Below are positions 1,877 to 59,622 of a stretch of DNA of 64,000 nt, one piece after another. The DNA comes from a virus: positions 8,622 through 72,621 of the IMG/VR virus record IMGVR_UViG_3300045988_055118. One strand, given 5' to 3'. Position 1 is the stretch's first letter; each line of letters starts with the position of its first letter. Both the position numbers and the translations under genes were made by a program. The notes under the pieces were generated by a model. That model did not search any database. It was given only the letters and a program-made list of their open reading frames with translations, and was not told where the DNA came from.

Positions 1877-2019
1877 TTTTTTATATATTTCATCGGAAGC
1901 GTTCGAGAATTAACCTACTAACACCCTTCATTCAACACTACGTTATCTTTTACCTAGAGGCAAGGATATTACTTAGCAAACTAAAAAAAAATAATAAAAT
2001 GTTTCTAAATATATAATAA

Positions 2020-2110: not shown

Positions 2111-2193
2111 AGCAGTACTTTTTTGCCAATCAACGGTTTTTAGAAGTAATATCCTACGATTTATCATCTAAATCGATTTTTATATTGTATATC

Positions 2194-8347: not shown

Positions 8348-11300
8348 AGTAGCATCTCCTATACTAACTTTTATGATAGTATTTAGGGTAGCACTTTCAC
8401 TATACTTATAAGAATCATAGGAAGTTACTACCTCTAAATCTTCATCAATATACTATCCATATTCCTTTGAAAAGTCTTCAATAGTTATTTCCCCGTTAAT
8501 CTGGGTATGTATATCAATACTAAATTCCATATTATAATAATTAAGACTCAGTAGTAGGCCATTGACCATATTGAGCAGGAGTAGAAAATGGTTTCCACTT
8601 ACCTTCTTGTCGTATACGTCTAGACATAAAAACTGAACTAAATGATAAACTAATATCTTGAGGATAGTCTGTCCATGTATATGACTAACCTTCAGGGGTC
8701 GGTGGTAGACTATTTAACTTACCAGCTGGTTCCCCATTCCAATAATAATTATAGTCATATGCTTTAGTTGGAGTAACAGTCGTTGTTTCATGTCCTTCCG
8801 AATCTACATATAGAGGATTTCCATCCTCATCTGTTTTCTGCTTATACTCAATAACTGGAGTTATTCCCTCAGTTCTAGTGTATATATTCTAGATAATAGT
8901 AGAAACATCGCTTGCTACAATCTCATAAATAGTAGTTCCCTGAGATTCGTCAGCCCCCTAGAAAGTAAATTTAGTTCTTTTCCAGATATATGGATTCTCT
9001 TCAGTTGGAAGTTCAAAAGTATCAGTCCACTATTTAGTAGATAATTTTATCTCAGATTCTTCAGCAGTGTCAGCAGGTAAGTAATGAATCTTAATAATAA
9101 TATTATTTACCGCTTCACTAGAACCAGAAAGGTCTGACACCTATTTAAATAGTTTCTTTAAATCTTCTTCCACATTTGATTTAGAACCAGAAGCATTACT
9201 AATAATTACTGAACCATCTGAAATAGGATAAATCTATTGCTAATCCTTATTATATACAATTGTTCCAGTTGCCATATTAATGTATTTGTCTTATTTTGTC
9301 ATTATATGGATTTCCATCATGAAGCTAAGCCAACTCTATTTCAGTTCTCTTTTCTTCTATATCCATTTGTCTATCTTTATAAGTAGAATCAGACTGAGCT
9401 TTAAGCCAGTTAACTTTATATTCTAACTGCATCTTCTACTATTCTAATCCTAGTCTCTATTCATCTAAGCTTTCAATCTTTTGCTGAGCTTTCTATAATT
9501 CTTGCTATAACTACTGAGCCTATTGAGAAGTTTCTTCTAATTTTTCTTGTAGTTGCTGAAGCTGATTATTTTCCTCTTTGCGAACTTGAACAGCTTTCTT
9601 AACCTTATATTTAAGGTCTGTCAGACTCTTAGATGTAAGAGCCTCAAAAATAATATCTGGGTCCATCTGTTGACTTTTTACGAACTCTGGAATGATTGCT
9701 TTTATAGTCTATAGATCTTCCATCACTTCTGAACTAGCAGTAATATGAATATCGTAGTCAGTAACAGTAAAATACTCAGGAAGTGCGGTGAATATCTGTT
9801 GATATTTATCCCCAAGTATAATAGTTCCAGTTAATCCTTTCTTATAAGTAACTTTAGCCTAATTAAGACTATCTAGTAGTATCTCGCAGGTTATTAAATC
9901 CATCTGCTAAAAATAGTGCTTAGTTACTATATACGAGTTAGCTACTCCCTACTTAATATTAGTAACTGCATCTCTAGTTTCTATACCGTTAAGTCGTTCC
10001 CTAAATACTCCAGTTATTGATGATGTAGTTTGTTCTACTGATTGAATAGCTAATTCAATAGCCTATACAGCCTATGCTTTTAAGGTATCATCAAATCCGT
10101 TATATATCTAGTTTGGAGCTTGCTGTCCATCATTCCTACCTTCTTGGCTTGAGTCTATCCACATGATACCACCTTTTTTATAGGCTAACCATTTTTGTAC
10201 TCGTTCTGGCCATTTAACTCCTAAGTTGGTAGGCAACAGAGACATATCCATAATAACTCCGGCAGTACCACTATTAGCTATTAGATTATCTCTATAATAG
10301 TTTAATAAGTCGTATCTATCCTACAGATGTGCACATTTTAATATAAGAGAATAAGGCTACTAAGAGCGATTTAAGAAATATACTCCATTTACCGATAAAG
10401 AACAGAAGTTGGGATTATCTTTAGACCTCATAACAGTCTTGTCTAATCCTCTAAGAATATATATCTCTTCTCCTATTCTGATAGTATTGTATCTCTACAT
10501 CACAAAATCATCATCTGTTTCAATCCATTCAACATCATAGACTGGGATTAACTAGAACCTATGAGCACTATATTCATTGTCTGGATAGCCGGGAATGGTT
10601 TCATGATTCTAATCTTCATTTACTACTGTACAAGTATCTCCATATACTCTTCTATAAACAGCAGCTGAATCATCAGCTCGCCATTCATCTTTTAGTCTTC
10701 TTAAATCTTCTCTAGATATTTCTTTGCCATATTTAGCTAAAATCTAACTCTTACTCATCCACTTTCTTACTACAACTCTATATGAGTTCCTTACATATGG
10801 AGATTCTGGATTTCTATCAACAAATGTATTAAGTGGGTTTAATACCTCTATTTCAATATTAGTTCCAGAAGCCGATGATTTCACTCTAAAGAATGTATAA
10901 CCAGTAATTAATAAGTCTGTTAGTAACTAACGTAACTTAGTAATTAAATCGGTTTCTCTGGATTGCATAATATAATGTAATATATTCTAAGCTGCAATTT
11001 CATATTGAGAAATAAAGGATTGGTCAATATCCTATATAATTTTATCTAACTAAGTCTTTACAGCTTTATCAGTAATATCCTTGCCATCAATAAACTTAAG
11101 AATTGAATTACTTAAATGGTCTTTCAAAAACTTTACTATTCCCTTGGTTATTTCTAGCTATTTTTCTCTTGTTATATTACTGATAGTATCTGAATCTTTG
11201 CAAGAAATTTTCGGAAGTATAGGAGTTCCTAAATATTCTCCAACTAGGGCATCTACGTGTTTCTTTAATAAAGGCGTAAACTCTACCGAAGTGGGGCTAC

Positions 11301-11389
11301 CTATTCCGAAGTTTTCTTCCAGATAACGGAACTATTCAGGATCTCTTTTACCATTATAATAATTATAAGCTTTCTGTAACTCATACTTA

Positions 11390-11851
11390 TCATATACAAG
11401 TTCCGCAATAGCCTCGTTTGTCTTGTCTATCAATTCCTTCTCTTTCATAACATAAATTATGTTGTTCTGGAGGAAGTTTAGTAGCGTTATAATACTTAAC
11501 TCTTTGTAACTTCCTACTTCTTAATTCTTCCTTAATAAATGGCAGAAATTCTTCGTCTGGTAAATCTGCTATTATTACTAATGGCATTTCTGACCTATCA
11601 AAGTTAAAAGAGACTTTATACCCAACTGGGTCTAAACTCTCAATATCTAGTCCGCCTATATACTCCATTTTGTACAAGTCCCTCATATATTCTAGGATCA
11701 CTTGTTTCAACTCTGTATGGGTCATCATATTCGTTTCTTTGCATATTAAGTTCAGGAGTTTTCTTAGTTGGAATAACTCCAAATCTTTTAATTCCTCTCT
11801 CGTCGTAATAGTAACCAAAATCTTGGAACTATTCAACTTCTTTCTCCACAA
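11390..11851 (-). CDS. hypothetical late protein (ends at TGA)
   Basis: 153-aa ORF; stop TGA at 11390-11392, showing TGA is used as a terminator in the late block. Confidence 0.4.
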   Translation of the reverse strand: MWRKKLNSSKILVTITTREELKDLELFQLRKLLNLICKETNMMTHTELKQVILEYMRDLYKMEYIGGLDIESLDPVGYKVSFNFDRSEMPLVIIADLPDEEFLPFIKEELRSRKLQRVKYYNATKLPPEQHNLCYEREGIDRQDKRGYCGTCI

Positions 11852-12062
11852 GTACGGGCTGTCTTCCTGATAGCTCTTGGTCTGCTAACTCAGTCATACC
11901 TACAGCGGCTACAATATCATACTTACCCTTATTTTCATCATTATATGCAGTGAACTATTCTAGCATTTCTTCGAACCATATAGTATGGCAATAGTCTTCT
12001 ATAAAGGCGGCTGTTAAATCAGTATGCTATTCGATTATAGTTTTTGTAGCAGGAGTTCCATA

Positions 12063-13769
12063 CTATTTAGTAGTTCCATTTCTAACGTCAGTTAGAGTAG
12101 CTCTTGGGCGCTTCATAAAATAGTTAAGGCATCCTTTTTCTCTAGCCCAAGTAACCATACCCATACGAGTAGCTTCTATATTTATTTTACAATTATAATA
12201 GCGAGCTAAACACATAGCTATTTTATAGGCTTCTCTGATGTCTCCAGGTCTATCCTTGTACATAGCAACATACTGAGGGTCATTCATACCAAATGCACGT
12301 TTCTTAATCGTTATGCAGAAATCAGACGGGTCTCTGGTTTCCTTAGAAGTCTAATTCGCTCCAATATCAATACCGTCTATACCTGCTACGTATAAGTCTC
12401 GCATCTCTTTATAAACTGGAACTTCAAAATCCTAGCCATTATCTTCTGCCTCCTATCTAAGCTTTTCCATTTGTTCTTTATATAAGTCAGACCATATTGG
12501 ATGCTCTAGAATTTTTACTTTACCATTGCTGTTAGGAATCCATTTAAAACCATCAATGTTATCCTAAGTATGTTTATTATTTTTGTAAAAATAATCAATA
12601 TAACCACATTCGGGTCTTGGACCAATTTGTTTAAGTCTTATATTAGCTATCTATTCGGCAACTAAAATTTTATTAAACTTATTAATACCTTCTAGATTAA
12701 ATGCTTCTTCTGCATTCCAACAACGTTCAGCACATTTCTTTAGGTAGTCTTCTGGTACAGCTAATAGATTATCTCGCTCCTCCTATAAGAATTTCTTATA
12801 TTCCACAGTATTACATACTCCTCTGTGGTCCATAAATTCTGGATTCAAAGATTGTATAAAGTATGGAATAAAGAATCCACTCTCTATAGTAGTCCCATCC
12901 TAAGTCCAATTATGTCTAAATGGAAGAATCTTATATGCTCTTGGATTATAGTAAATCTTTTTTAAGCCCTCTAGAGGAGCACCCATATCACCGCCAGTAC
13001 CTCCAAACAACATTGTTCCACGAGGCATACCTTGAACTTCACAAAGTTCTTGACCTTGTACCACAGCGGTATCAAGTCCAGGCCAGGAACCAGCTTCATC
13101 ATATATTAATAAATCTACACGGTCTCCACGAATGTTAGATGGTTTAGCTCCGTTAATTGCTACAACCTCAGATTTAAATCCTACGTCTTCAAACTAACCA
13201 TTTATTTTGATTTGTTTACCTGATTTCTTTCTCAAATCCTGGTCAATAAGTCGCAATTTAAAAAATCCTCCTCCAGTACAGGTATTTAAGAATGTAAGAG
13301 CATTGTCAAACTTACTAAAGGTACCCTTAAGGAAGGTATCATTAAAGCAAGTAATCATAACCCTACTTCTTCTAATAACAGAGTACATACGAGCAGAAAG
13401 AGAGGCGTTTATTTCAGAGAATCCAATAGAACGAGCTTTCATTAAAGCTGCGTGCTTGTGTAGCACCCTAGCCATCTATAGATAATGAAAGAACATATAA
13501 TGTGATGCAAAGAATATTGGGAAGTCATTATCAGTACCCTCACCAGAGGCTTTCTACTAGTCAATAGTAGGTAACTAATAGAAATTTAAGAAGAAGTAAT
13601 TATCTCCAGTAATGGTGTATCCATTAACTGTCATTCCATACTTACATCTTCTATATTGCTCTTTCCAAAATTCGTTGTACCGCTTACTATCTCTAAGGTA
13701 GGGACAGTATTGACCAGTTCGTTTATATACTTCCCTAGTCTCGGTAAACCAATCTGGATTAAAGTCCAA
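12063..13769 (-). CDS. candidate terminase large subunit, TAG-interrupted
   Basis: ORF-track pieces 12063..12287, 13194..13475 and 13575..13769 share one frame and each ends at TAG. KARSIGFSEINASL resembles the RQxG(K/F)S/T terminase ATPase P-loop region. The C-terminal piece (RPGDIREAYKIAMCLARYY...IEATRMG) is terminase-nuclease-like. The assignment rests on motif resemblance only. Confidence 0.3.
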
Positions 13770-14819
13770 TCCATGAGTTTCGTCAATAGGTCTGTATCCA
13801 GTTATTTCATAAGATAAGGTAGGGTCAAATACTTCTATTTTATCTCCTATTTTAACATCCCAATAGTCAGAATTTCTGACCCTTTCCTCTCTTATTTTCT
13901 ATACTAATTCTCTAGCTTCTTTAGCATCCTCTTTCTATTCTTTTTCTCTTACCTAATCTACAATATTCTATATTTCTTCAGGTAATATCTTTTTTCTTGG
14001 CATAATTAAAAGTCTCCTGGGTCAAAACCATCCACAGCTCCAGCTCTAACAGTAGATTGTTCAGTAAGTTCTTTCTTAACCTAGTCTTCTAGTGTTATGA
14101 GTTCTTCATGAACTTTGTGAAGGGTAGCCATTTCCTTCATTACTTTTTCAGCCTGGAATACTGGCTTGCCGTTATTATCACGCTCATTTAAATCTACAAT
14201 AGTTTCGAAATAATCAATAAACTAGTCTGCAGCTCTTTTAGCTGCTTCTAGTAATTTTATTGACTTGTTTGAATCTTGTAACGCTCTGTATTTCCTACAA
14301 GCTTCTCTAAATATAGGGTCATTAAATTCTGACTCTGTCAATCCAGAATCACTAATAGCTTCGTCATGTCGTTCATGTTCCGAATACTAACTGTACGGAC
14401 TTTTCCAGTCTATAGCTAAATAAATGTAAGATAGTTCTCTAGTAGCTCTATCCTTTTCTGCAGATTTATCCCTCTAGATTAAAGCCTTAAATTCCTTAAC
14501 TAGCAATATCTCTGGTTCATTTATTTCTAGCTATTTAGTTAAAGTGTTATAGTTAAATACATTCATAATCATTAATCATTATCATACACATTAGATAATC
14601 TTATTATTTCTTTTTCATTTTGGAACCGCACTTATTGACTTTCATTTTGGAACCACAAGCGTCTTTCTTAGCATATTGTTTTCTGTCAGGAACCCATTTT
14701 CCTCCCTGGAAATTACCCTTATGTCCCTTATTGGCCATAGTTTCCTAATCATTGTATTTATTGATTGATATAGAATCTCTTGAGGCTTCGTCTCTAGCAG
14801 ATTTCATATCTTTCTTATA

Positions 14820-15029
14820 CTAAGCTCTTCCAGCCTTAAATTTATCAACTTCATTAGCTTTCTTAGTAACTTTAGTTCCTTTTTGTGCTTTCTGGCAAGC
14901 TTTACAGATTCTACCGCCTTGCTTAAAATATACAAGCTCTTCTCCTTCTGGACATACTCCTTTTAGCTTCTTATAATACTCAAGCTTAGCTCCAAGCCTA
15001 GCCATTACTCCTCCTTGCATTTTCTGCAT
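14820..15029 (-). CDS. small basic late protein fragment
   Basis: Lys-rich 69-aa ORF ending at TAG 14820-14822. Confidence 0.3.
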   Translation of the reverse strand: MQKMQGGVMARLGAKLEYYKKLKGVCPEGEELVYFKQGGRICKACQKAQKGTKVTKKANEVDKFKAGRA

Positions 15030-15392
15030 AAATTCCTGATACTTAGCTTTAATGCCGTCTTCACCTAATTGTTCAGCATAAGCTTGTAAATCCTATTCAG
15101 ATTGTACTTGTATTCCCTACGCAGCGGCATCTTGTATTAGATATGCCATAAATGCTTTTTGTAATTCTTCCTAGTTAGCCATTACTCTTCTACTTTAATT
15201 AAATCCTTAGTATTAAACACTGCTTCCTACATAAGTCCGGAATCAGTAAACCATCTACATCTTAATCCTCGTAATCCTTGGTTATCTTTAAATAAAGCTG
15301 CTTCTCTTCTTAGAACAAGCATAACTGGAGAATGCATTACTTTACACTACCGTAAAGTAACACAATCCCCAGGCTTAAAATAAACTTTTTCA

Positions 15393-19571: not shown

Positions 19572-19589
19572 AACTATTAATTTTGGCGT

Positions 19590-19661
19590 TGCCCTACTAG
19601 GATTCGAACCCAGACTAAATGATTTAGAGTCATCTGTGCTGACCATTACACCATAGGGCAG
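19590..19661 (-). tRNA. amber suppressor tRNA, anticodon CUA (reads UAG), Gln-type
   Basis: Manual fold: acceptor TGCCCTA/TAGGGCA with U1-A72 (Gln hallmark), D arm GTGT/GCAC, anticodon stem GATGA/TCATT, loop CTCTAAA (U33, CTA, A37), T arm CTGGG-TTCGAAT-CCTAG. D and T arms nearly identical to the genomic tRNA-Gln(TTG) at 34204. Confidence 0.8.
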
Positions 19662-19798: not shown

Positions 19799-20200
19799 TC
19801 ATACATAAGCTTTCAGTTGTTCAATTCTCTTTTTAGCTATATCTGACAATGCCATTTTGAATTTAGCAATACCAGCTCTTACTGTTTCTAACTTGCCGCT
19901 TTCTAAGCATTCTTGTATTTTATGAACTTCAAGCTCTCCTAGATATTCGCATACATCTATAAATAAATCATCATCTAGAGATTCTAAATATTTCTGGAAT
20001 TGGTCTACCTCTTCATTAGCTAGACAGCTTTCTTCCTTCTATCTTTCATAAGATATTAATAAGAACAAAGAATCGTCGGTAGATTCGGACTTAATAGTTA
20101 GCCCATTACCAGACATATAATATTCTTGATTCGTATTAATTGCCTCAACTAGCTATTTAAACTAGTCCTAATTTAACAATGTTTCTAAGTCTGTAATCAT
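19799..20200 (-). CDS. hypothetical protein with four in-frame TAG codons near N-terminus
   Basis: ATG at 20200; frame open to TGA at 19799-19801 if TAG is sense. Confidence 0.35.
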
Positions 20201-20518
20201 AATTGTTTTCTTTTTAGTTATATACAACAATAACCTCCGAAAAGTTAAACGCAAAGTTAAAAAATTCTAATTCAAATATTATACATATTTTATATATTAA
20301 GGGGAAAGCCGGTACAGGTACTTTATATAAATAGCCCCCTGGGGTTATTATAAATTCCGACTTTTATATTTGGAGGGCAATTACCTAGATTCCAAAAATT
20401 CATAGAGTGAGTGTAGTGGCGGTCCACAACCCCTTTAGTCCCCCCCTGTATATTGATATAAAACTAAAACAAAAACAAAAATCAATTTCCAGTATTAACA
20501 TTTTAAAATTTCAAGATT
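20201..20518. promoter_or_regulatory. divergent intergenic region between late (minus) and plus-strand blocks; probable divergent promoters and/or origin
   Basis: 318 nt noncoding, AT-rich with three short GC-rich islands (ggggaaagccggtacaggtac; tagccccctggggtt; gtggcggtccacaacccctttagtcccccctg). Confidence 0.4.
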
Positions 20519-21211: not shown

Positions 21212-21945
21212 CTCTAAGGTACTATGAGTTTTAAATAAAGTGCCCACATGAACCCCATCATCGGAACGTTGGTTAACGGGGAAAACAACATCACAACAAA
21301 TCAAATCAAAGTTTTTGTTTAGTTTTAGGATTATATCTGGCAGCTTGGAAAGACAAGCAAAATCTTTATACCTATCTGCTAATAGGTTTAGTGTTCAACG
21401 CGAAAATTCGGTAAAGGAAGGAGAGAAATTGTCCACTAAAAAGACCCTCAATTTCCGGACTTTTTCCGATTTTCAAAAAATCCGCCAGAGTAGGAGTTAT
21501 ATAGCTCACACTCTCTATGGACATTATTTAGTATTTAGCCTATAAAAAGGCAACAAAAAGCGAGGCTACGCAGAAGAGCCTAACACCAAAAATAACTGCT
21601 ACAAATTCTATGTGCATATTCGCAAACTTGAGCACTATAGGATTTAGGTTGAGCTATAAGGATTGGTCACTTATAGCAATATTATGAGTACTGCTGATAT
21701 GTCAGTGACCGTACATATCACATATAAAATATGTTATACAATTATGTTAGAAGTTGCCAGGTCTAAGAAGCCTGATTAAAATCTCTAGATAGTAAGAGAG
21801 AACCTCATAAGGGTTCATTTTCCATCTCGAACCTATTCGCAAGTTTATAGACTAGCTATCTATAAATTTAGTGAACGTTGATAACGTCCTCAGCATGGAA
21901 AACTGAGAAATAATCTCCTATCTTATTCTAGATATAGATAGGATT

Positions 21946-41406: not shown

Positions 41407-41479
41407 ATCTCAAACATGGGCCGTTAGCTCAAATGGCTAGAGCGCTGGTTTTGCACACCGGAAGATAGGGTTCGAGTCC
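41407..41479 (+). tRNA. tRNA-Ala (anticodon TGC) with G3·U70; lower acceptor stem mispaired
   Basis: D GCTC/GAGC, anticodon stem CTGGT/ACCGG, loop TTTGCAC, T arm TAGGG-TTCGAGT-CCCTG. Only 4 of 7 acceptor pairs form. Confidence 0.5.
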
Positions 41480-41508
41480 CTGCGTGTCCACAACAAAATT
41501 AAATAATT

Positions 41509-42229: not shown

Positions 42230-42522
42230 GCGTAATACAACAGGTCTACTTAGCTGAATCAGGCAGTTCTATTTACATAAAGGGGATTAAACCTGATAAA
42301 GAGAATGAATATTCTGGTGAGATTACTCTAAACGGTAATCCCACTAGATTAGAGAGAAAAGAACGTTACCATATAAGTAACGGTATGCTTGTTACAGATA
42401 GTTATCATATCCCTATGGAGTTCATTATTAGCTTCTTGCAGGCTAACGGATGTGTTCAAGAAGGAGAAGATGGCAAGTCGTATGTTGTTTTAAGAGAAGT
42501 AGAATTTAAATTGAATAACTAA
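42226..42522 (+). CDS. hypothetical protein
   Basis: 98 aa; ATGA overlap. Confidence 0.4.
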   Translation: MSVIQQVYLAESGSSIYIKGIKPDKENEYSGEITLNGNPTRLERKERYHISNGMLVTDSYHIPMEFIISFLQANGCVQEGEDGKSYVVLREVEFKLNN

Positions 42523-43103
42523 TGTTATCAGTATTATATAGCGAATATGAGCTGTGGGGTTGTCCTAATTGTGGGTGCGATTCCGTTATAAGTAGTGGAG
42601 TTTCTGGAGGAGGTCTAACATCTGGAACTTGTAGACATTGCAAGTTAAAATTTGAAGTTAGAAGCGAAAATCCAATGGGAATAGTCAAATATGGCTGCCA
42701 TCCAGAAAATCCCTCAGACCCGAAATCTAAATGGGTTATGGAAAGCGCAATCAGAATTGAACATCCTAGAAAAGGTATTCCTGCATGGAATTGGGAACCA
42801 GTTGACGAACGTCCAGAAGAAGGAGAATATTGGAACTCTCGTGGTCCTGGCTATCCAGATGTTTCTGGCTTTGTAAAGACCAAAGCTGCTGGTGAGCGTA
42901 TTCTAGCTATGGTGCATGAAGTGTTAGGAACTGACAAGTGTAAGACTTATCTAGATTTCAGACCAAGTGAACCAACGTGGATTCAATTCAAATTTCATAA
43001 AGACGAGTTTGATATAGAGAAACTAGATTCTCTTACTCGTGATAGTGGAATAATTACTAAAGACATAATCAAACAATGTATTTATGGCAAAAGTAGTAAA
43101 TAG
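42522..43103 (+). CDS. hypothetical protein with N-terminal CxxC...CxxC
   Basis: 193 aa; CPNCGC ... CRHC. Confidence 0.45.
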   Translation: MLSVLYSEYELWGCPNCGCDSVISSGVSGGGLTSGTCRHCKLKFEVRSENPMGIVKYGCHPENPSDPKSKWVMESAIRIEHPRKGIPAWNWEPVDERPEEGEYWNSRGPGYPDVSGFVKTKAAGERILAMVHEVLGTDKCKTYLDFRPSEPTWIQFKFHKDEFDIEKLDSLTRDSGIITKDIIKQCIYGKSSK

Positions 43104-43375: not shown

Positions 43376-43936
43376 GGGCCTACTTGGATTTGACAGGCGA
43401 TTACAAATTATAAGGACGTGTAGAGCGCAATCTCTTTAAACGAAGGAAAATAATAAATGCTACTTATAGCGAAGTAAGAATGGCAGCCTAAGCTGCTGGC
43501 TTGTTGGTAGACACTATTAACTAAGTCGGGTTACGGGAGAGACCTAGAAACAGAAGAGGTTGAGTATATTGATATAATGGAGAGCTAGGCTCTAATCCTA
43601 GTAATATGCTCTTAATCAGAACACTCTAAGAGTTAGTAAGACTGAATCTCCTATGTCATAAAACAGATGGAAGATGTGTTCCGTGAGATGTGACGAATCT
43701 CTAAAGTATCATCCCGTTCTCCAACGTAAATGGAGTGGTGGAACGTTGACTTCGGTCAGCCCTATAGTTTGGTAGCTTGTAGATAAGCATCTAGAGAAAT
43801 ACTTAGTATGGACTCTTGTAAGACTTATAAAACTACCTAAATGCTAGAACTCCCTAGCTGATATAATAAAAATGAGACGCACGTTATCCTTGTAACGAGG
43901 GTTGTTTGGACACGGGTTCGACTCCCGTTAGGTCCA
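43376..43936 (+). ncRNA. ssrA: tmRNA (ssrA)-like RNA
   Basis: 5' end GGGCCTACTTGGATTTGACAGGCG matches the tmRNA 5' consensus (GGGG..UGGAUUCGACGGG). 3' end ACGGG-TTCGACT-CCCGT-TAGGTCC-A forms the T arm and an acceptor pairing with the 5' GGGCCTA. About 560 nt with no protein ORFs. Candidate tag ORF ...NATYSEVRMAA-TAA near 43447-43485. Confidence 0.6.
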
Positions 43937-43942
43937 CATAAT

Positions 43943-44273: not shown

Positions 44274-44948
44274 ATGACTAGATTAGAAAAGTATTTAGTA
44301 GCAACTGCTACTGAGATTATCGAAGCGGAAACAACTGTTTCTCGCTACTTTGTCATTGGAAACGTCAAAGTTAGAGTATCAGACCATTTAAGTAAAATGA
44401 GTGATGCAGACTTACAAGTGATTATTCCATTGAACGGAGGGACTAAGTATATAGTTACTGTTAAGGATAGTCCTGGAAAATTTCTTGTATGGAATGCAAC
44501 TCAAATAAAAGACTTTATTCCTTCATTGCAGATTATTAAGGGCTTGAAGGAAGGAGTACAACTTAAGCCAAAACCTAAAGACTCTGCAGTTCAGAAGATT
44601 CAGCTAGCATTAAATAATAGTAATACCGATGGAGGTTCGTTAACGTTCGATGGTACTATTATCGAGTCTAGATTGAAAGAAAAGCAACTTACCTCCAAAC
44701 AGCGGGAAGTTTTCAGGAGAACTAAATCTACTTGGGATATTTCTCAGATTGGAACATTACCCAGTATGATTAAAGTAGATTTGGGATTGTCAAATGGTTC
44801 TGTAAACGAAGATGTGCAGATATTTCTAACTTGTACATCTTTAACCTACAAAGAAATTCTGAACATTTATAAAATAATAGTTGTTGATAACCATATGGTT
44901 CCAACTATTAAACTGTTGCAAGAAGCTTATAGCTTAATTGTGCAGTAG
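44274..44948 (+). CDS. hypothetical protein
   Basis: 224 aa. Confidence 0.5.
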   Translation: MTRLEKYLVATATEIIEAETTVSRYFVIGNVKVRVSDHLSKMSDADLQVIIPLNGGTKYIVTVKDSPGKFLVWNATQIKDFIPSLQIIKGLKEGVQLKPKPKDSAVQKIQLALNNSNTDGGSLTFDGTIIESRLKEKQLTSKQREVFRRTKSTWDISQIGTLPSMIKVDLGLSNGSVNEDVQIFLTCTSLTYKEILNIYKIIVVDNHMVPTIKLLQEAYSLIVQ

Positions 44949-45404: not shown

Positions 45405-45830
45405 ATGAAAACGTTAAATGAGATTTTAGACAATTACAAAGACTATGCCGTAGTTCTCGATGACCGTTTCGGTTCTAGATTAGCAAAGTTTTTAACAGAA
45501 GAGCAGTTAGAAAAAATAGGCTTCAAGTACGATGGTGATGAGCCTTATCCAGAGCCTAAGGAATGGACTAGAGAGAATATCCTAGAGCAACTTAAGTCTG
45601 ACGTGGAGTTTGGTTTTGAGAAGGCTCTAGACCAGAGAGGCATTTCAGCTAGCCTAATGTTCTACGTGGTACTAAGGTGGAATCAAGTTCTAGAAGAGGG
45701 CTTAGAGAATTATCCTGAAGAGAATTATGCTATGTATGGGTTGCCTTTGTTTAAGGCTACTGCTGTAAAGTATGGATGGGAGAATCCTATAGGCGACGAT
45801 AATGGGGACGAAGAGTTCTACAATGAGTAG
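45405..45830 (+). CDS. hypothetical acidic protein
   Basis: 141 aa. Confidence 0.45.
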   Translation: MKTLNEILDNYKDYAVVLDDRFGSRLAKFLTEEQLEKIGFKYDGDEPYPEPKEWTRENILEQLKSDVEFGFEKALDQRGISASLMFYVVLRWNQVLEEGLENYPEENYAMYGLPLFKATAVKYGWENPIGDDNGDEEFYNE

Positions 45831-53975: not shown

Positions 53976-54992
53976 ATGAAGAAAATTTTTAGTATTATTT
54001 GTTTGTGTTTAATGTGCGTGTTTGCTAGCGCACAAGTTGTTGAAACTGGAAGTTTGAAAGATAACTGGTATGTTTCTGGTAATGTAGGTACTACAATTTG
54101 GGACAACTCAAGAAGTTGGGCTGAACCTCGTGATGTATTAGTAAATATTGCGGTGGGTAAAGAAATTACTCCTATCTTTGGACTAGAGTTAGATATGATG
54201 GCAGGTATGAATCAAGGCAGTGAAACGTTCTTCGATTCCCATAACCTTACAGCTAATGTAACTACTAATCTAACTAATCTTATTTGTGGATACGAAGGCT
54301 CTAGACGTTTATTTGAGCCTGTATTACTGATAGGTGCTGGTTGGTATCATACTTATGGTGATGTTTATAATAATGTATCTGCAAGAGGTGCAATTAGATG
54401 CAACTTTAATATTACTGATAGTTGGGCACTAAATGTTACTCCAGAGTATATGCTACTTCCAAAGACTACTCCTCTAAATCATGAAGTAAATGTTTATATA
54501 GGAGCCACTTACCGGTTTAAGTCTAATAAAGGAAACTTTCCTATGATGAAACTATATAGTGACGCTGAAGTAGAAAGTCTTAATGCTGCTATTAACGAGT
54601 TGAGGGTTAAGAATAGCGAATTGGAATCTCGTAAACCAGTAGAAATAATTAAGACTGATACTATAGTAGTTACTAAGGTAGAACTTCTTACACCTAAAAT
54701 TCAGTTTTTACAGAACTCTTCTGAAATCTCTACAACTTCTAATGTTGCAGTATCGGAGTTAGCAGCTTATATTTCAAATAGTGGTAAGTCATATATGATT
54801 GAAGGATATGCTTCTGAAGAAGGTCCAGTAGATTTTAATGACAACTTAGCTGTAGCTAGAGCAGAATCTATGAAGAAGGCCCTTATCAGTTATGGCGCTC
54901 CAGAGGATAAGCTTATAGTTAAAGGCTGCGGAAGCACTACTGAGTTTGGAGATAGAGAATTTAACAGAATCGTAATCGTAACAGAACAATGA
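53976..54992 (+). CDS. OmpA-family outer-membrane protein with signal peptide
   Basis: MKKIFSIICLCLMCVFASAQ signal. N-terminal beta-rich region, coiled-coil linker, C-terminal OmpA-like domain (GYASEEGPVDFNDNLAVARAESMKKAL...KGCGSTTEFGD). Confidence 0.6.
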   Translation: MKKIFSIICLCLMCVFASAQVVETGSLKDNWYVSGNVGTTIWDNSRSWAEPRDVLVNIAVGKEITPIFGLELDMMAGMNQGSETFFDSHNLTANVTTNLTNLICGYEGSRRLFEPVLLIGAGWYHTYGDVYNNVSARGAIRCNFNITDSWALNVTPEYMLLPKTTPLNHEVNVYIGATYRFKSNKGNFPMMKLYSDAEVESLNAAINELRVKNSELESRKPVEIIKTDTIVVTKVELLTPKIQFLQNSSEISTTSNVAVSELAAYISNSGKSYMIEGYASEEGPVDFNDNLAVARAESMKKALISYGAPEDKLIVKGCGSTTEFGDREFNRIVIVTEQ

Positions 54993-55572: not shown

Positions 55573-56068
55573 ACATCTAATTAGGATTATTAAGCATAAA
55601 TACTGGGTAGCACGCTATTGTTTCCAGTTAGGTCTTTATTGGCAGGGAATAGTACATGACTGGTCTAAGTTTAGCTATACTGAATTTAGTAGGTCAATAA
55701 AGTATTGGGACGATACTATTAGTCCTCTAGCTAATGAGAAAAACATACACGGATATTCTGAAACCTTCCTACATCATCGAGGAAGAAATCCACATCACTA
55801 TGAATATTGGGTTCATAGTTTAGATGAAGGAGGAGTTCCAGCGAAAATGCCAAGAAAATATGCTTTGGAATTAGTCTGTGATTATCTGGCTGCTGGGAGA
55901 ACCTATAATAAAGATTTTACCTATGGGAGTGAGTACAACTGGTGGATTAAATTTCTAAGTTCACCTAGAGCTATACATCCCGAAACCAAGGACTTCGTAA
56001 CTAAATGCTTTAGGCATTTGAGTGCCGGAGGTAATATTAAATATTTATTGAAAATTGACTATGAGTAA
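55556..56068 (+). CDS. hypothetical protein (His-rich, possible HD-like metal-dependent hydrolase)
   Basis: VHDWSK ... FLHHRGRNPHHYEYWVH. Confidence 0.35.
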   Translation: MTRIFKHLIRIIKHKYWVARYCFQLGLYWQGIVHDWSKFSYTEFSRSIKYWDDTISPLANEKNIHGYSETFLHHRGRNPHHYEYWVHSLDEGGVPAKMPRKYALELVCDYLAAGRTYNKDFTYGSEYNWWIKFLSSPRAIHPETKDFVTKCFRHLSAGGNIKYLLKIDYE

Positions 56069-56879
56069 GATAATAGGGCAAGACAAGTTAATTAAGGAAG
56101 TTAATAGAATATTTCAGGTATTTGTAAATAGTAATTGCAAGATAAGACCGCACTTTATTCTTACAGGTGAGAGCGGGTCTGGTAAGAGCTTTACTATTAA
56201 ACAGTTATGTGATATGAATGAACTTAGCTTTCTAGAAGTTAATGCAGCTCAAATAACTAAAGAGGGTATTTCTGGAAATAGTTTAAGCAAAATTCTATCT
56301 CCACTTGTTAACTATAGTCACACACCTATTGTAGTCTTCGTAGACGAGTTTGATAAACTTTTCATCAACGGAAACACTAATAGCCAACTGGCTAATGAAT
56401 CTACTGCCAGTGTACAGAACGAGTTTCTCAAACTTTTAGAGTCTGATACTACTAGTGTTTTTGGCGATTATGGGAAGTACATATCAGTCCCTATTGATAA
56501 TGTACTATTTGTGTTTGCTGGAGCATTCAATAATGAGCCTCACATTACATTAGATAGACTAAGAGACTTTGGAGTTAAAACAGAGTTTCTTGGAAGAGTA
56601 GGATTAATCTACAATACTAAACCTCTCACTCTAGAGGATTTGTATTCTATCTTGGAGTGTTCAGACTTGTTGCAGAATTATCTTGACTTATTCTTTAATG
56701 TAAATAGAGAACAAGTCATTAGTGATTTGAAAGGGTATCTCGAAAGTTCTTTTCGCAATAATACTCTTGGAGCAAGAACAATTAATACTCTTATTCACCA
56801 ATACTTTATCAAAGGTGGAAAACTCGAAACTGAAGAAGTAAAAGAAATAACTTTTAACAAAAAATTAGAATGGAAATAA
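56055..56879 (+). CDS. ClpX-like AAA+ ATPase (AAA+ module only, no zinc-finger N-domain)
   Basis: Walker A GESGSGKSF, Walker B VVFVDEFDKLF, then SVQNEFLKLLE...NVLFVFAGAF, colinear with ClpX (IDEIDKI...QQALLKLIEG...ILFICGGAF). Confidence 0.5.
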   Translation: MTMSKIIGQDKLIKEVNRIFQVFVNSNCKIRPHFILTGESGSGKSFTIKQLCDMNELSFLEVNAAQITKEGISGNSLSKILSPLVNYSHTPIVVFVDEFDKLFINGNTNSQLANESTASVQNEFLKLLESDTTSVFGDYGKYISVPIDNVLFVFAGAFNNEPHITLDRLRDFGVKTEFLGRVGLIYNTKPLTLEDLYSILECSDLLQNYLDLFFNVNREQVISDLKGYLESSFRNNTLGARTINTLIHQYFIKGGKLETEEVKEITFNKKLEWK

Positions 56880-58420
56880 TTAATGCTACAGATGGTTACA
56901 AGTTGGGCCATCACAGAATGTACCCCGAAGGTACTGAACAAGTTTATAGTAACTGGACTCCTAGAAGTAATAAATACTTCCCAGAAGCAACCGAAGGTTC
57001 AGTAGTATTTGGTATTCAATACCTAATCAAAGAATATCTCATTAAACAGTTTGAGAAAAACTTCTTTAATCTACCAAAGAAGGAAGCTGTGGAGATGTTC
57101 TATCGTAGAGTAAACAACTTTGTTGGTATTGAATCCGTTGGGTACAGACATATTGAAGCTTTATATGACCTTGGGTATCTACCAATTCGCATAAAGGCTC
57201 TTCCTGAAGGTTCTGTGTGCCCTATTCGGGTTCCCATGATGACCATTACAAATACTCTACCCGAGTTCTTTTGGTTAACTAACTACTTAGAGACTATTAT
57301 CAGCTGTACCTTGTGGATGCCATGCACATCTGCTACTAGAGCTAGGCTTTATAAGAAAGAGCTACATCGTCATGCTTGCAAGACTGGTTTTCCAACAGAT
57401 GTAAATCTTGGTTTTTGTTGTCATGATTTCTCAATGCGAGGTATGGCGGGAATGGAAGCCGCAATTATATCTGGTATGGCGCATATGACTTCTTTTGTGG
57501 GAAGTGAAACTATTCCAGCTATTGCTGCTTTGGAAGAATATTATGGAGCTAATTCAGACGAGGAATTGATTGCTGCTACAGTTCCAGCAACAGAACACTC
57601 TGTAATGTGTGCTGGAGGGGAGGAAGATGAGCTGGGCACTTTCAAACGTCTAATTAATGATTTGTATCCTTCTGGGTTTGTTTCTATTGTATCTGATACT
57701 TGGGATTTCTGGAATGTAATTGAAAATTTCTTGCCCAAGCTGAAGAAAGACATTATGGCTCGTGATGGTAGAGTAGTAATCCGTCCTGATAGTGGAGACC
57801 CAGTAGATATAATCTGCGGGTTGAGAACTAATCCTCACTTCAATACCAGAATGAAAGAAGGTAAGTATTATTGCTGCTATGCTCCGTTTAATGACGATGC
57901 AGAGTATGTTGAAGTGTCCGAAGGTCAATATTATGGGGCATATTATATGCTTGGTAAAATCTTCGGATGGAATACTACTTCAAAGGATTACCGTTATCCT
58001 AGCACTAAGGTTGGTCTGCTTTATGGAGATTCTATTACTCTGGAACGTCAAAAGCAAATCTACTTGAGATTAGAAAACGCTCATATGGCGGCTTGTAATC
58101 TCGTTCTGGGAGTAGGTTCATATTCCTATCAGTATGCAAGTAGAGATAGTCTTGGGTTTGCTATTAAGGCTACTGCTTGCGTAGTAAATGGCGAATTGAA
58201 AGAAATCTTCAAACATCCTAAAACTGATGATGGTACTAAGAACTCTTTGAAAGGTTTGATTGCTGTCTATAAATGTCTGGATGGGAAGTATACTGCTACC
58301 GACCAGGTCTCAATCGAGGAGGAAAAAGAGGGATGCTTAGAGACTGTCTTTGAAGATGGTATCTTGAAGAAAGAATATTCTCTTGAAGAAATCAGACAAA
58401 GAATTGACCATGGACTTTAA
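56870..58420 (+). CDS. nadV: nicotinamide phosphoribosyltransferase family protein (NadV/Nampt; possibly the Namat variant)
   Basis: ATDGYKLGHHRMYPEGTEQVYSNWTPRS and IRPDSGDPVD match Nampt signatures ([37 protein letters not shown]); 516 aa. Confidence 0.7.
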   Translation: MEIINATDGYKLGHHRMYPEGTEQVYSNWTPRSNKYFPEATEGSVVFGIQYLIKEYLIKQFEKNFFNLPKKEAVEMFYRRVNNFVGIESVGYRHIEALYDLGYLPIRIKALPEGSVCPIRVPMMTITNTLPEFFWLTNYLETIISCTLWMPCTSATRARLYKKELHRHACKTGFPTDVNLGFCCHDFSMRGMAGMEAAIISGMAHMTSFVGSETIPAIAALEEYYGANSDEELIAATVPATEHSVMCAGGEEDELGTFKRLINDLYPSGFVSIVSDTWDFWNVIENFLPKLKKDIMARDGRVVIRPDSGDPVDIICGLRTNPHFNTRMKEGKYYCCYAPFNDDAEYVEVSEGQYYGAYYMLGKIFGWNTTSKDYRYPSTKVGLLYGDSITLERQKQIYLRLENAHMAACNLVLGVGSYSYQYASRDSLGFAIKATACVVNGELKEIFKHPKTDDGTKNSLKGLIAVYKCLDGKYTATDQVSIEEEKEGCLETVFEDGILKKEYSLEEIRQRIDHGL

Positions 58421-58847
58421 TCATCCTTTTGGGAAAGAAGCTTGCAAGAAACGACTATTAGAAGAGTATCATAAATACGGAAAGCTAATAGTCGCTTTCG
58501 ATTTTGATAATACTATTTTCGATTACCATAATACTGGCGGAGATTATAGTTGCGTTATAGAACTACTTAAAGAATGCTCACTTCTAGGTTTTGAAATGAT
58601 TTTATTCACCACTGATGAAGATGATTATAAAATTATGGCAAAGCAGACAATTTGTATGCGATTAGGAATAGCAAATATTACTTCTAATACTTTATCTGCT
58701 CCAAACATTAGTAGTTCTATATTCTCTAAATCTAAGAAACCTTATTACAATATCCTCCTAGATGATAGGGCAGGTCTGGAAGAAAGTTATGAAATCTTAA
58801 AATATGTAGTAGATGAAATTAAACTTAATCAACAAGGAAATCAGTGA
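58383..58847 (+). CDS. HAD-superfamily hydrolase
   Basis: LIVAFDFDNTIF (DxDxT motif I). Confidence 0.5.
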   Translation: MKKSDKELTMDFNHPFGKEACKKRLLEEYHKYGKLIVAFDFDNTIFDYHNTGGDYSCVIELLKECSLLGFEMILFTTDEDDYKIMAKQTICMRLGIANITSNTLSAPNISSSIFSKSKKPYYNILLDDRAGLEESYEILKYVVDEIKLNQQGNQ

Positions 58848-59622
58848 AATTAAGTACAATGTTACTAGATTTCCTGATGGAGAGCCTCAGTTTTTCCTTA
58901 CTGAGGAATTAAACAGAAAGGAATCTATTGATGTCATTTGTAGAATATCTAATACTGAGGATTTATTCCTCTTAGTGCAAGTAGGAGATATTTTAGATAG
59001 ACAAGAAGTAGAATGGGATTTACACATTACTTATTTAATGTCTATGCGTATGGATAGAGTAATGAGTTTTAATCGTCCATTCTCCTTGAAAGTAGTATGT
59101 AATATGTTAAATAGCTTAGGCTATAGAAACATATATGTTCTTGAGGCACATTCTAGTAGAACTTTTCATCTTCTTGGTGACAGATGTTTACCTTGGGAAT
59201 TTGGACACCACTCTTGGATTCCAGCCCAAAGTAATATCGTGTTCCCAGACCATGGGGCGAAGGACAGATATGGAAGTAACTATTCTCACTATGGTTATTT
59301 AGTCTTCAAAAAGGAAAGAAATCTAGAGACTGGAAGAATTGAGTCCTTTGAAATAGAGGAGTCTAAGAATTGCTACTATTCTACATTTGTGTTCATTGAT
59401 GACTTGTGTGATGCCGGAGGAACTTTCCTAGGAGAGCTTAAGGTTCTCAAAGAGAGATATCCAAATAGCAAGTTTATCATAATCGTATGTCACGCAGTTA
59501 ATGATAAAGGTCTGATTAATATGTGTAATAATTTTGACCAGGTTATTGTATCTAATTCTCATAGGGATATTAATTATCGTCCCAGCAACGAGAACTTAAC
59601 TGTAATAGACGTTTGTAAATAA
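58813..59622 (+). CDS. ribose-phosphate pyrophosphokinase (PRPP synthetase) family protein (Prs, or the ADPR-PP synthetase Adps variant)
   Basis: RFPDGEPQF (cf. Prs RFSDGEV), VLEAHS, FPDHGAKDRY, VFIDDLCDAGGTF (PRPP-binding loop). Confidence 0.6.
   Translation: MKLNLINKEISEIKYNVTRFPDGEPQFFLTEELNRKESIDVICRISNTEDLFLLVQVGDILDRQEVEWDLHITYLMSMRMDRVMSFNRPFSLKVVCNMLNSLGYRNIYVLEAHSSRTFHLLGDRCLPWEFGHHSWIPAQSNIVFPDHGAKDRYGSNYSHYGYLVFKKERNLETGRIESFEIEESKNCYYSTFVFIDDLCDAGGTFLGELKVLKERYPNSKFIIIVCHAVNDKGLINMCNNFDQVIVSNSHRDINYRPSNENLTVIDVCK

What the first reader, a model, noticed from the sequence alone, without database searches (positions are those of the whole stretch)
43376..43936. Phage-encoded tmRNA-like RNA, with a ClpX-like ATPase elsewhere in the window
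The 5' end GGGCCTACTTGGATTTGACAGGCG and the 3' end ACGGGTTCGACTCCCGTTAGGTCCA reproduce the tmRNA tRNA-like domain (acceptor pairing plus T arm) across a 560-nt ORF-free stretch embedded in the tRNA array. A short candidate tag frame ends ...VRMAA-TAA, with the Ala-Ala terminus typical of ssrA degrons. At 56055-56879 the phage encodes a ClpX-like AAA+ module that lacks the zinc-finger domain. Together these suggest manipulation of trans-translation or ClpXP proteolysis. The tRNA-like domain of a tmRNA could also serve as a phage attachment site.
Basis: partly seen in the sequence, partly recalled or inferred. Interest (0 to 1): 0.65.

Follow-up and report, generated by a model that had tools for sequence, protein, structure and literature searches.

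The report
Phage-encoded tmRNA in crAss-like phage
A large human-gut phage that reads the TAG stop codon as an amino acid in its late genes carries its own complete, unusually long tmRNA (the RNA that frees stalled ribosomes). This is a real but already known kind of phage gene, and the nearby ClpX-like ATPase shows no link to it.

Summary
Window 43376-43936 (+) is a genuine one-piece tmRNA gene. It scores 63.6 bits against Rfam RF00023 (gathering score 47, E 1.7e-22). It has a 7-bp acceptor stem with an invariant G3:U70, a T arm, a long P2 helix, and a 10-codon tag, ATYSEVRMAA-UAA, whose stop lies in a hairpin loop.

I recovered 67 distinct homologues (514-601 nt) from gut viral contigs. In a 19-sequence alignment, 22 of 52 core base pairs show compensatory changes. 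The tag frame is kept despite heavy divergence.

The RNA is about 1.5 times the Rfam model length. ARAGORN misses it. Pseudoknot 1 is reduced in the window's lineage.

The host phage resembles the Zeta crAss-like group. Its late genes are TAG-recoded and it carries a Gln-derived suppressor tRNA.

The 274-aa ATPase has a ClpX-like fold. It lacks the zinc domain, the RKH loop, the IGF loop and the pore-1 aromatic residue. Its family occurs mostly in about 72-kb N4-like phages, where no tmRNA is known to me. No functional link is supported.

The attachment-site idea is also unsupported. Overall this is a new member of a known kind. A possible role in buffering amber-suppression read-through is untested.

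The parts
43376..43936 (+). tmRNA (ssrA) gene, 561 nt up to the discriminator A. CCA is not encoded; the next bases are CAT.
   Evidence: Rfam RF00023 at 63.6 bits, E 1.7e-22, full model. 67 distinct homologues were recovered. Covariation supports the core.
43376..43382 (+). Acceptor stem, 5' strand (GGGCCUA). It pairs with 43929-43935 (UAGGUCC). G3:U70 is the alanine identity pair. The discriminator A is at 43936.
   Evidence: All 7 pairs form. G:U is seen in all 17 correctly aligned rows of 19. Positions 5 and 7 show compensatory changes (C-G to U-A, A-U to G-C).
43912..43928 (+). T arm: ACGGG / UUCGACU / CCCGU.
   Evidence: 4 of 5 pairs show compensatory changes across relatives, and 100% of cells are paired.
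43394..43421 (+). P2 connector helix, 5' strand. It pairs with 43879-43908.
   Evidence: 22 pairs in three helix segments. 12 of them show compensatory changes, and 95-100% of cells are paired.
43422..43435 (+). Hairpin at the pseudoknot-1 position (AGAG / CGCAAU / CUCU). In this lineage the second stem is at most 2 bp (C51-G67, G52-C66).
   Evidence: Invariant in 19 of 19 sequences. Sister lineages have a longer stem (AGAGUU/AACUCU) plus a 3-bp pseudoknot stem, G(U/C)A with U(A/G)C, showing U-A in 9 and C-G in 3.
43459..43491 (+). Tag reading frame. The resume codon GCU is at 43459-43461. There are 10 codons, ATYSEVRMAA, and the stop UAA is at 43489-43491. The upstream context is UAAAU.
   Evidence: The frame is kept in all 67 relatives despite divergent N-terminal halves and no indels. 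In 64 of 67 a single UA(A/G)NU|G motif lies upstream of the stop and is always in frame. GCC/GCG/GCU synonymous changes occur. In the unbiased first set the stop is TAA or TGA in 20 of 20.
43482..43497 (+). P5 hairpin (GGCAGC / CUAA / GCUGCU) holding the stop codon in its loop.
   Evidence: 5 pairs, 100% paired in 19 of 19 sequences.
43498..43878 (+). A 381-nt 3' structured domain that takes the place of pseudoknots 2-4. Conserved blocks alternate with hypervariable, indel-rich stretches. The Rfam alignment needs a 213-nt insertion here.
   Evidence: Helices conserved in 67 sequences, in tmRNA positions: 123-126/149-152, 153-157/166-170, 256-259/265-268, 342-350/360-368, 396-403/455-462, 468-472/480-483. 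Pseudoknot topology is not resolved.
56055..56879 (+). ClpX-fold AAA+ ATPase (phrog_5534, 274 aa). I considered it and judge it NOT part of the tmRNA system.
   Evidence: Pfam AAA at 1.3e-12. ClpX is the best match by sequence in PDB (5.8e-11) and by fold (Foldseek 4.7e-11, TM 0.45-0.5). There is no zinc-binding domain, RKH loop, IGF loop or pore-1 aromatic. It is present in 211 phage records, mostly about 72-kb N4-like phages.
19588..19660 (-). Context only: suppressor tRNA with anticodon CUA, derived from tRNA-Gln. It decodes the TAG codons of the late genes on the - strand.
   Evidence: ARAGORN and Rfam tRNA hits. Its closest relative in the window is the phage tRNA-Gln(UUG). Late ORFs carry 4-28 in-frame TAG codons.

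Best explanation
Window 43376-43936 encodes a functional, standard (one-piece) tmRNA of a roughly 190-kb crAss-like gut phage. It is most likely transcribed with the surrounding tRNA array. RNase P and 3' nucleases would trim it, and a CCA-adding enzyme would complete it. Host AlaRS would charge it with alanine through G3:U70. SmpB, not encoded in this window and so presumably the host's, together with EF-Tu would deliver it to ribosomes stalled at mRNA 3' ends. Translation would resume on GCU at 43459 and add (A)ATYSEVRMAA before stopping at UAA. The ribosome is released and the peptide carries a non-polar Ala-Ala C-terminus of the kind that ClpXP-type proteases recognise. SHOWN here: family membership, the tRNA-like domain with covariation, and a conserved tag frame. 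INFERRED: charging, the use of host SmpB, degradation of the tagged products, and the selective reason. That reason is probably extra ribosome-rescue capacity during infection, when non-stop complexes should rise. The ClpX-like AAA+ protein at 56055-56879 is an unrelated phage gene.
For: Rfam RF00023 matches the full model at 63.6 bits against a gathering score of 47, E 1.7e-22. All relatives tested also pass, at 56-75 bits. In a 19-sequence alignment of the core, 95.6% of cells are paired against 37-45% when partners are slid. 22 pairs show compensatory change against 1-8 in the slid controls, and 0 of 500 shuffles reach the observed value. G3:U70 and the discriminator A are invariant. The tag frame is kept in 67 distinct sequences with 13 different tags of 9-10 residues, all ending in RMAA (the RMAA ending was required by the search pattern for most of them). 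The upstream UA(A/G)NU|G motif is always in frame, and the stop codon lies in the P5 loop. The gene sits at a syntenic position in the tRNA array in relatives. Neither the tmRNA nor any of the 28 tRNAs encodes CCA, so the tmRNA shares their maturation needs. Phage-encoded tmRNAs are already established (PMC4131195, PMC7162821).
Against: There is no expression, charging or tagging data. No SmpB gene was found in the window: tblastn with E. coli SmpB and Pfam scans of 59 + strand ORFs. The rest of the roughly 190-kb genome could not be searched. Pseudoknot 1, the pseudoknot most important in E. coli, is reduced to a 4-bp hairpin in the window's lineage. Pseudoknots 2-4 could not be resolved, and the Rfam model skips most of the middle. 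The tag ends in MAA rather than the usual LAA, so recognition by the host protease is assumed rather than shown.
Confidence: 0.85

Rival explanations
1. The tmRNA is part of the phage's code-switch toolkit. Late in infection the Gln-type amber suppressor reads through UAG stops on host mRNAs. Some ribosomes then run to the mRNA 3' end, and the phage tmRNA supplies the extra rescue capacity. Its own tag stop avoids UAG. This refines the best explanation rather than replacing it.
For: The late genes are TAG-recoded (TerL has 20 and portal 28 in-frame TAG codons), and a tRNA-Gln-derived Sup(CUA) is present. The tag stop is TAA or TGA in 20 of 20 unbiased relatives. In the same sequence context there are 94 loci with TAA or TGA and 0 with TAG. 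The four TAG-terminated early genes all have a backup TAA or TGA 3-9 codons downstream. Read-through caused by suppressor tRNAs is a documented trigger of trans-translation (Ueda 2002, as cited in PMC3985003). Only CUA suppressors were seen in the flanks of relatives.
Against: tmRNAs also occur in phages that are not known to be recoded, as far as I know (mycobacteriophage Bxz1, Bacillus phage G; PMC4131195). From my own knowledge, UAA is the usual tag stop in bacteria anyway, so avoiding UAG is weak evidence. No test of co-occurrence between recoding and tmRNA was possible here.
Confidence: 0.25
2. The RNA acts as a decoy or hijacker of host trans-translation. It would titrate SmpB or replace the host degron with a tag that host proteases do not recognise, protecting phage products or blocking a tmRNA-dependent host response.
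For: A TLD-only phage tmRNA (mycobacteriophage DS6A) inhibits host tmRNA (PMC4131195, PMC11915505). No SmpB gene was found in the window. The tag ends in RMAA, not the common ALAA.
Against: A pure decoy needs no tag frame. Here the frame, the resume context and the stop-in-loop arrangement are conserved across 67 sequences. The Ala-Ala C-terminus, the main ClpX determinant, is kept.
Confidence: 0.08
3. The tmRNA and the ClpX-like AAA+ protein form a dedicated phage tagging and unfolding or degradation module.
For: The AAA+ protein has a ClpX-like fold with intact Walker A and B motifs, an Arg finger and sensor 2. Both genes lie in the same early-gene region.
Against: The protein has no IGF loop, RKH loop, zinc domain or pore-1 aromatic. 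No ClpP is encoded in the + strand ORFs of the window. The two genes are 12 kb apart. The family (phrog_5534) occurs in 211 phage records, mostly about 72-kb N4-like phages, in which no tmRNA is known to me (not tested here). In close relatives it always abuts NAMPT.
Confidence: 0.04
4. The tRNA-like 3' end is a phage attachment site, or a remnant of integration into a host ssrA gene.
For: tmRNA genes are frequent integration sites for genomic islands (PMC11915505).
Against: The gene is complete and differs from any bacterial tmRNA. A scan of 185,579 species genomes with its 24-nt 3' end found only a mis-binned phage contig carrying the same tRNA array. No integrase was found among the 59 + strand ORFs scanned. 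The gene is conserved in place in 94 loci.
Confidence: 0.02

Closest known systems
Bacterial one-piece tmRNA (SsrA, Rfam RF00023), e.g. E. coli SsrA
   Same: It has a tRNA-like domain with G3:U70, a T arm and no anticodon arm. It has a long P2 helix and a U-A pair 5 and 4 nt before the resume codon. The tag has 10 codons and ends in Ala-Ala. The stop codon lies in the helix-5 loop. Its score is above the family gathering threshold.
   Different: It is encoded by a phage. It is 561 nt (family range 514-601) against a 374-position model. Pseudoknot 1 is minimal in this lineage. The pseudoknot 2-4 region is replaced by a larger, hypervariable domain. The tag ends in RMAA. CCA is not encoded. No adjacent or detectable smpB was found.
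Known phage-encoded tmRNAs (mycobacteriophage Bxz1 group, Bacillus phage G, huge phages of Al-Shayeb 2020)
   Same: All are full tmRNA genes carried by large, tRNA-rich phages (PMC4131195, PMC7162821).
   Different: This one belongs to a different phage lineage: crAss-like, probably the Zeta group, from the human gut, with a likely Bacteroidota host. Its genome has TAG-recoded late genes. ARAGORN, on which those surveys and Pharokka rely, does not detect it (PMC7162821, PMC12291355). The crAss-like and Zeta papers I searched do not mention tmRNA.
ClpX (AAA+ unfoldase of ClpXP), compared with the protein at 56055-56879
   Same: It has the AAA+ large and small domains. ClpX is the best match by sequence and by fold. 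Walker A and B, the GR(V/L) Arg finger and the GAR sensor 2 are conserved.
   Different: It is only 274 aa. It has no zinc-binding domain. The pore-1 motif is G(I/T/V)(S/A)G instead of GYVG. The RKH loop is deleted. Only 12 residues stand where ClpX has about 47 including the IGF loop. It is a phage-specific family of unknown function (phrog_5534).

Membership tests
tmRNA (RF00023) | Covariance-model score at or above the curated gathering score | tested here: met
   63.6 bits against 47, E 1.7e-22, model positions 1-374. Relatives score 56-75 bits.
tmRNA (RF00023) | tRNA-like domain: 7-bp acceptor stem with G3:U70, discriminator A, T arm, no anticodon arm | tested here: met
   All pairs form. 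G:U is invariant. The acceptor stem and T arm covary: 2 and 4 pairs respectively show compensatory changes.
tmRNA (RF00023) | Long helix (P2) joining the tRNA-like domain to the mRNA-like and pseudoknot domain | tested here: met
   22 pairs, 12 with compensatory changes, 95-100% of cells paired.
tmRNA (RF00023) | Short internal tag ORF with a GCN or GGN resume codon, no start codon, an in-frame stop and a non-polar C-terminus | tested here: met
   The tag is ATYSEVRMAA-UAA. The frame is kept in 67 relatives with 13 different tags. The upstream UA(A/G)NU motif is in frame in 64 of 64 cases. The stop lies in the P5 loop.
tmRNA (RF00023) | Four pseudoknots (PK1 upstream of the tag, PK2-4 downstream) | tested here: inconclusive
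   PK1 is a hairpin plus at most 2 bp in the window's lineage. Sister lineages have a 3-bp second stem with a compensatory U-A to C-G change. Downstream helices are conserved, but no pseudoknot could be established. The literature regards PK2-4 as variable and dispensable in vitro (PMC3985003).
tmRNA (RF00023) | Works with SmpB | not testable with these tools
   No SmpB was found in the 64-kb window. The rest of the genome and the host could not be examined, so use of host SmpB is inferred.
tmRNA (RF00023) | Alanylation and trans-translation activity | not testable with these tools
   This needs biochemistry or proteomics.
ClpX | AAA+ module with Walker A and B, Arg finger and sensor 2 | tested here: met
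   GESGSGKS, VDEFDK, LGRVG and GAR are invariant in the family alignment. The top 50 Foldseek matches are all ClpX.
ClpX | N-terminal C4 zinc-binding domain | tested here: not met
   Walker A starts at residue 38. There is no N-terminal domain and no Pfam zf-C4_ClpX hit.
ClpX | Pore-1 GYVG loop with an aromatic residue, and the RKH loop | tested here: not met
   The aligned positions read G(I/T/V)(S/A)G. The RKH segment falls in a gap of the query.
ClpX | IGF loop for docking on ClpP | tested here: not met
   There are 12 residues between GAF and FGV, against about 47 in ClpX including GIGF. No ClpP is encoded in the + strand ORFs of the window.
Phage attachment site in ssrA | A 3' fragment identical to a host tmRNA gene, with an integrase nearby | tested here: not met
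   No bacterial match to the 24-nt 3' end in 185,579 species genomes. No integrase domain among the 59 + strand ORFs scanned. The gene is full length.

The most novel reading that the evidence does not exclude
The tmRNA is an integral part of the stop-codon-recoding strategy of Zeta-type crAss-like phages. When the phage's Gln amber suppressor switches the cell to reading UAG, host messages ending in UAG are read through and some ribosomes run off the mRNA end. The phage tmRNA, whose own tag stop is never UAG, then keeps the ribosome pool available for late-gene translation and marks the aberrant host products for destruction. This would tie a ribosome-rescue RNA to a viral change of genetic code for the first time.
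Probability: 0.25. Interest if true: 0.65.

Novelty: new member of a known kind. Interest (0 to 1): 0.4.

Why it matters
Phage tmRNAs are known from a few cultured phages and from huge phages. This family sits in crAss-like phages, the dominant viruses of the human gut. It is widespread: at least 94 IMG/VR loci on contigs of 93-202 kb. The tool most phage pipelines use for tmRNA (ARAGORN) does not see it, and the crAss-like papers I could search do not mention it.

The family gives a ready comparative set of 67 sequences with strong covariation. That set could be used to study how much of the pseudoknot region a tmRNA can remodel. It also offers a concrete, testable link between ribosome rescue and viral stop-codon recoding.

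The work also corrects a tempting over-reading. The gene that annotators call ClpX is a ClpP-independent AAA+ protein of unknown function.

Tried and rejected
- **ARAGORN.** ARAGORN -m on the region finds nothing. It detects only the 515-nt relatives and assigns them a wrong tag.
- **Pseudoknot search.** I tried layered RNAalifold and RNAfold, an H-type pseudoknot enumerator, and an alignment-wide covariation scan of 67 sequences. The best-scoring candidate (339-345/357-363 with 347-352/368-373) was rejected because its second stem is absent in the other subgroups. The long-range pairing GGGAGA(160-165)/UCUCCU(272-277) is kept in all variants, with a correlated 1-nt extension in the L003 type, but it hardly varies, so I leave it as a candidate only.
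- **SmpB and ClpP.** tblastn with E. coli SmpB and ClpP against the window and flanks gave nothing. Pfam scans of 59 + strand ORFs found no SmpB, ClpP, integrase or release factor. The TAG-recoded - strand late ORFs were checked only by that tblastn and, for some, by PHROGs.
- **Bacterial source or attB.** A genome scan for the 3' end found only a mis-binned phage contig.
- **TAG tag stops.** A 14-base pattern gave only chance hits, none in tmRNA context among 120, and the scan was truncated. The specific 18-base pattern gave 0 hits.
- **GenBank phages.** Only two unannotated fragments carry the RNA.
- **Promoter scan.** The sigma-70 promoter scan is uninformative here, because hits do not exceed the shuffled expectation and a Bacteroidota host is likely.

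Full report
**1. The observation**

Rfam's tmRNA model RF00023 matches window 43376-43939 on the + strand over its whole length (model positions 1-374). The score is 63.6 bits against a gathering score of 47, with E 1.7e-22 for the 64-kb window. The stretch has no ORF longer than 33 aa on its strand. It is embedded in a + strand array of 26 tRNA genes, and tRNA-Ile begins 7 nt after the discriminator base. ARAGORN, run both through the tool and locally with -m, does not report it.

**2. Anatomy**

- **Acceptor stem.** Positions 1-7 (GGGCCUA) pair with 554-560 (UAGGUCC). This includes the G3:U70 wobble that defines alanine identity. A561 is the discriminator.
- **3' end.** CCA is not encoded; the next bases are CAU. 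The same holds for all 28 tRNAs in the window.
- **T arm.** ACGGG/UUCGACU/CCCGU.
- **P2 helix.** A long interrupted helix (19-46 with 504-533) joins the tRNA-like domain to the rest.
- **Pseudoknot-1 position.** After a small hairpin here (AGAG/CUCU, 47-60) comes the A-rich linker AAUAAUAAAU.
- **Tag frame.** GCU ACU UAU AGC GAA GUA AGA AUG GCA GCC UAA (window 43459-43491) encodes ATYSEVRMAA.
- **P5 hairpin.** The stop codon lies in the tetraloop of GGCAGC/CUAA/GCUGCU, as in canonical tmRNAs.
- **3' domain.** The remaining 381 nt (123-503) alternate conserved blocks with hypervariable stretches. The Rfam alignment needs a 213-nt insertion where the model has 26 positions. In a relative the model simply skips most of this region.

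**3. Relatives and covariation**

An exact-match scan of IMG/VR with the 3' end gave 29 loci. A scan with the tag and P5 sequence gave 94 loci. These lie on human-gut viral contigs of about 93-202 kb. GenBank phages hold only two unannotated fragments.

I extracted 67 distinct full-length sequences of 514-601 nt. I then aligned 19 diverse sequences, using the 5' part plus the last 84 nt of each. The results are:

| Measure | Observed | Control |
|---|---|---|
| Cells forming standard pairs | 95.6% | 37-45% when 3' partners are slid |
| Pairs with compensatory change | 22 of 52 | 1-8 in slid controls |
| Shuffles reaching the observed values | 0 of 500 | |

The acceptor stem changes C5-G to U-A and A7-U to G-C. 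Four of the five T-arm pairs show compensatory changes, as do 12 of the 22 P2 pairs. G3:U is invariant.

The tag region is the most divergent part of the 5' half, yet it has no frame-breaking indels. Thirteen different tags occur, including ATYSE-, AEIAP-, AERSD-, AEIDYN-, GETEGF- and GNTE-. All are 9-10 residues long and all end in RMAA-stop (the scan pattern required the RMAA ending for most of them). Synonymous GCC, GCG and GCU variants occur. In 64 of 67 sequences a single UA(A/G)NU|G motif lies upstream of the stop, and it is always in frame. The U-A at positions -5 and -4 matches what I recall as the frame-setting determinant in E. coli. That is established knowledge I did not re-test here.

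**4. What is unusual**

- **Length.** At 561 nt it is about 1.5 times the Rfam model. This probably explains ARAGORN's failure. ARAGORN does find the 515-nt variants, but with a wrong tag.
- **Pseudoknot 1.** In the window's lineage it is reduced to a 4-bp hairpin with at most a 2-bp second stem. Sister lineages have a 6-bp stem plus a 3-bp pseudoknot stem with a compensatory U-A to C-G change (9 against 3 sequences).
- **Downstream pseudoknots.** Six helices are conserved in all 67 sequences. I could not establish pseudoknot topologies. The literature treats pseudoknots 2-4 as variable and dispensable in vitro (PMC3985003).
- **Partner genes.** No smpB, clpP, integrase or release-factor gene is present in the + strand ORFs of the window.

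**5. The phage**

The - strand block at 1-15.2 kb, plus 19.8-20.3 kb, is unreadable in the standard code. It opens into long ORFs if TAG is read as sense. These include the terminase large subunit (20 TAG), the portal protein (28 TAG), tail proteins and a reverse transcriptase. A suppressor tRNA with anticodon CUA sits at 19588-19660 (-). It is most similar to the phage's own tRNA-Gln.

The + strand, which carries the tmRNA, uses the standard code. Its four TAG-terminated genes each have a backup TAA or TGA 3-9 codons downstream. Genes lack Shine-Dalgarno sequences: 4 of 46 have one, against a 15% background.

TerL is 25-28% identical to crAss-like phages of Bacteroides and Flavobacterium. Together with the contig sizes, this fits the Zeta crAss-like group of Yutin et al. 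2021, which has 145-192 kb genomes, suppressor tRNAs and recoded late genes (PMC7886860). It also fits the proposed Echekviridae (PMC12386605). Neither paper mentions tmRNA. The group assignment and the Bacteroidota host are my inferences.

**6. The ClpX-like protein**

The 274-aa product of 56055-56879 has Pfam AAA and AAA_2 domains. ClpX is its best match by sequence (5.8e-11). An AlphaFold model (pLDDT 71) has ClpX as its top 50 Foldseek matches, with E 4.7e-11 and TM 0.45-0.5. Walker A and B, the Arg finger and sensor 2 are invariant in the family.

Four ClpX-specific elements are missing:

- There is no N-terminal zinc domain.
- The pore-1 position reads G(I/T/V)(S/A)G, with no aromatic residue.
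- The RKH segment is deleted.
- Only 12 residues stand where ClpX has about 47, including the IGF loop that docks on ClpP.

The family is phrog_5534, of unknown function. It has more than 1,900 metagenomic relatives. It occurs in 211 GenBank phage records, mostly about 72-kb N4-like Pseudomonas, Erwinia, Salmonella and Klebsiella phages, where it is routinely labelled ClpX. No tmRNA is known to me in that phage group; I did not test this. In close relatives the gene abuts the NAMPT gene.

The gene is 12 kb from the tmRNA. I find no basis for a functional link with trans-translation or ClpXP.

**7. The attachment-site idea**

The gene is full length and is conserved in place in many genomes. 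Its 24-nt 3' end occurs in no bacterial genome among 185,579 species representatives. The one hit is a phage contig binned into a Clostridium MAG, which carries the same tRNA array and tmRNA. No integrase is encoded in the + strand ORFs of the window.

**8. Mechanism and rivals**

The best-supported explanation is canonical trans-translation by a phage-supplied tmRNA that uses host AlaRS, SmpB, EF-Tu and proteases.

The most interesting refinement is a link to recoding. Amber suppression should drive read-through of host UAG stops. Suppressor-induced read-through is a documented trigger of trans-translation (Ueda 2002, cited in PMC3985003). tmRNA also acts at unassigned UAG codons in recoded E. 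coli (PMC6207430). The tag stop is TAA or TGA in 20 of 20 relatives found without bias. In the same sequence context, 94 loci have TAA or TGA and none has TAG. This is only weak support. From my own knowledge UAA is the common tag stop anyway, and phages that are not known to be recoded also carry tmRNAs (PMC4131195).

A decoy role is unlikely given the conserved tag frame.

**9. Verdict**

This is a real, well-supported phage tmRNA. It is a new member of a known kind, with an unusual size and an unusual genomic setting. The ClpX link and the attachment-site reading should be dropped.

Noticed in passing
window 21749-21919 (+) and 21946-22016 (+): A RAGATH-14 RNA (RF03145, 174 bits) lies 26 nt upstream of a tRNA with anticodon UUA, which looks like an ochre suppressor. 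The recoded late ORFs contain no in-frame TAA, so the role of this tRNA, and of the RNA next to it, is unexplained.
   Followed up: partly
window 1-15200 and 19799-20278 (- strand); tRNA at 19588-19660 (-): The late structural genes are TAG-recoded: TerL has 20 in-frame TAG codons, portal has 28, and tail proteins are also affected. They are served by a suppressor tRNA (CUA) derived from tRNA-Gln. The + strand uses the standard code.
   Followed up: yes
window 22805-23269, 42522-43103, 44274-44948, 45405-45830 (+): The four early genes that end in TAG all have an in-frame TAA or TGA 3-9 codons further on. Amber suppression would therefore add only 2-8 residues to them.
   Followed up: partly
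window 602-1909 (-) and 2194-4020 (-): A reverse transcriptase (phrog_1423, E 5e-113) lies next to a tail protein gene. This looks like a diversity-generating retroelement, as described for Zeta crAss-like phages (PMC12386605).
   Followed up: no
L003 3833-4347, L013 5772-6287, L025 2620-3135: ARAGORN detects only the shortest (515-nt) members of this tmRNA family. It gives them a wrong tag peptide (VQQKDDRATVLNLKAKG**). Pipelines that rely on it would miss or mis-annotate the family.
   Followed up: yes
window 53976-54992 (+), 56870-58420 (+), 58813-59622 (+): The phage encodes an OmpA-type outer-membrane beta-barrel protein with a signal peptide. It also encodes a NAMPT and a PRPP-synthetase-like protein, which form an NAD-salvage pair directly after the AAA+ gene.
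   Followed up: no
window 20519-63088 (+), ORF not located: One + strand ORF matches the tRNA ligase phosphodiesterase domain (tRNA_lig_CPD, E 2e-7). Others match RNase H and a radical-SAM fragment. These hint at tRNA repair functions beside the tRNA array.
   Followed up: no
window 39406-39488 (+) and 41418-41490 (+): One tRNA is called Tyr but has the unusual anticodon AUA. Separately, Rfam reports a tRNA hit (39.5 bits) that ARAGORN does not.
   Followed up: no
window 43459-43470 (tmRNA positions 84-95): The first tag codons can form a small hairpin: GCUA/UAGC here, AGUG/CACU in sister lineages. It shows compensatory changes (helix 7). This may be chance arising from a few tag families, or it may be a structure that masks the resume codon.
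   Followed up: partly
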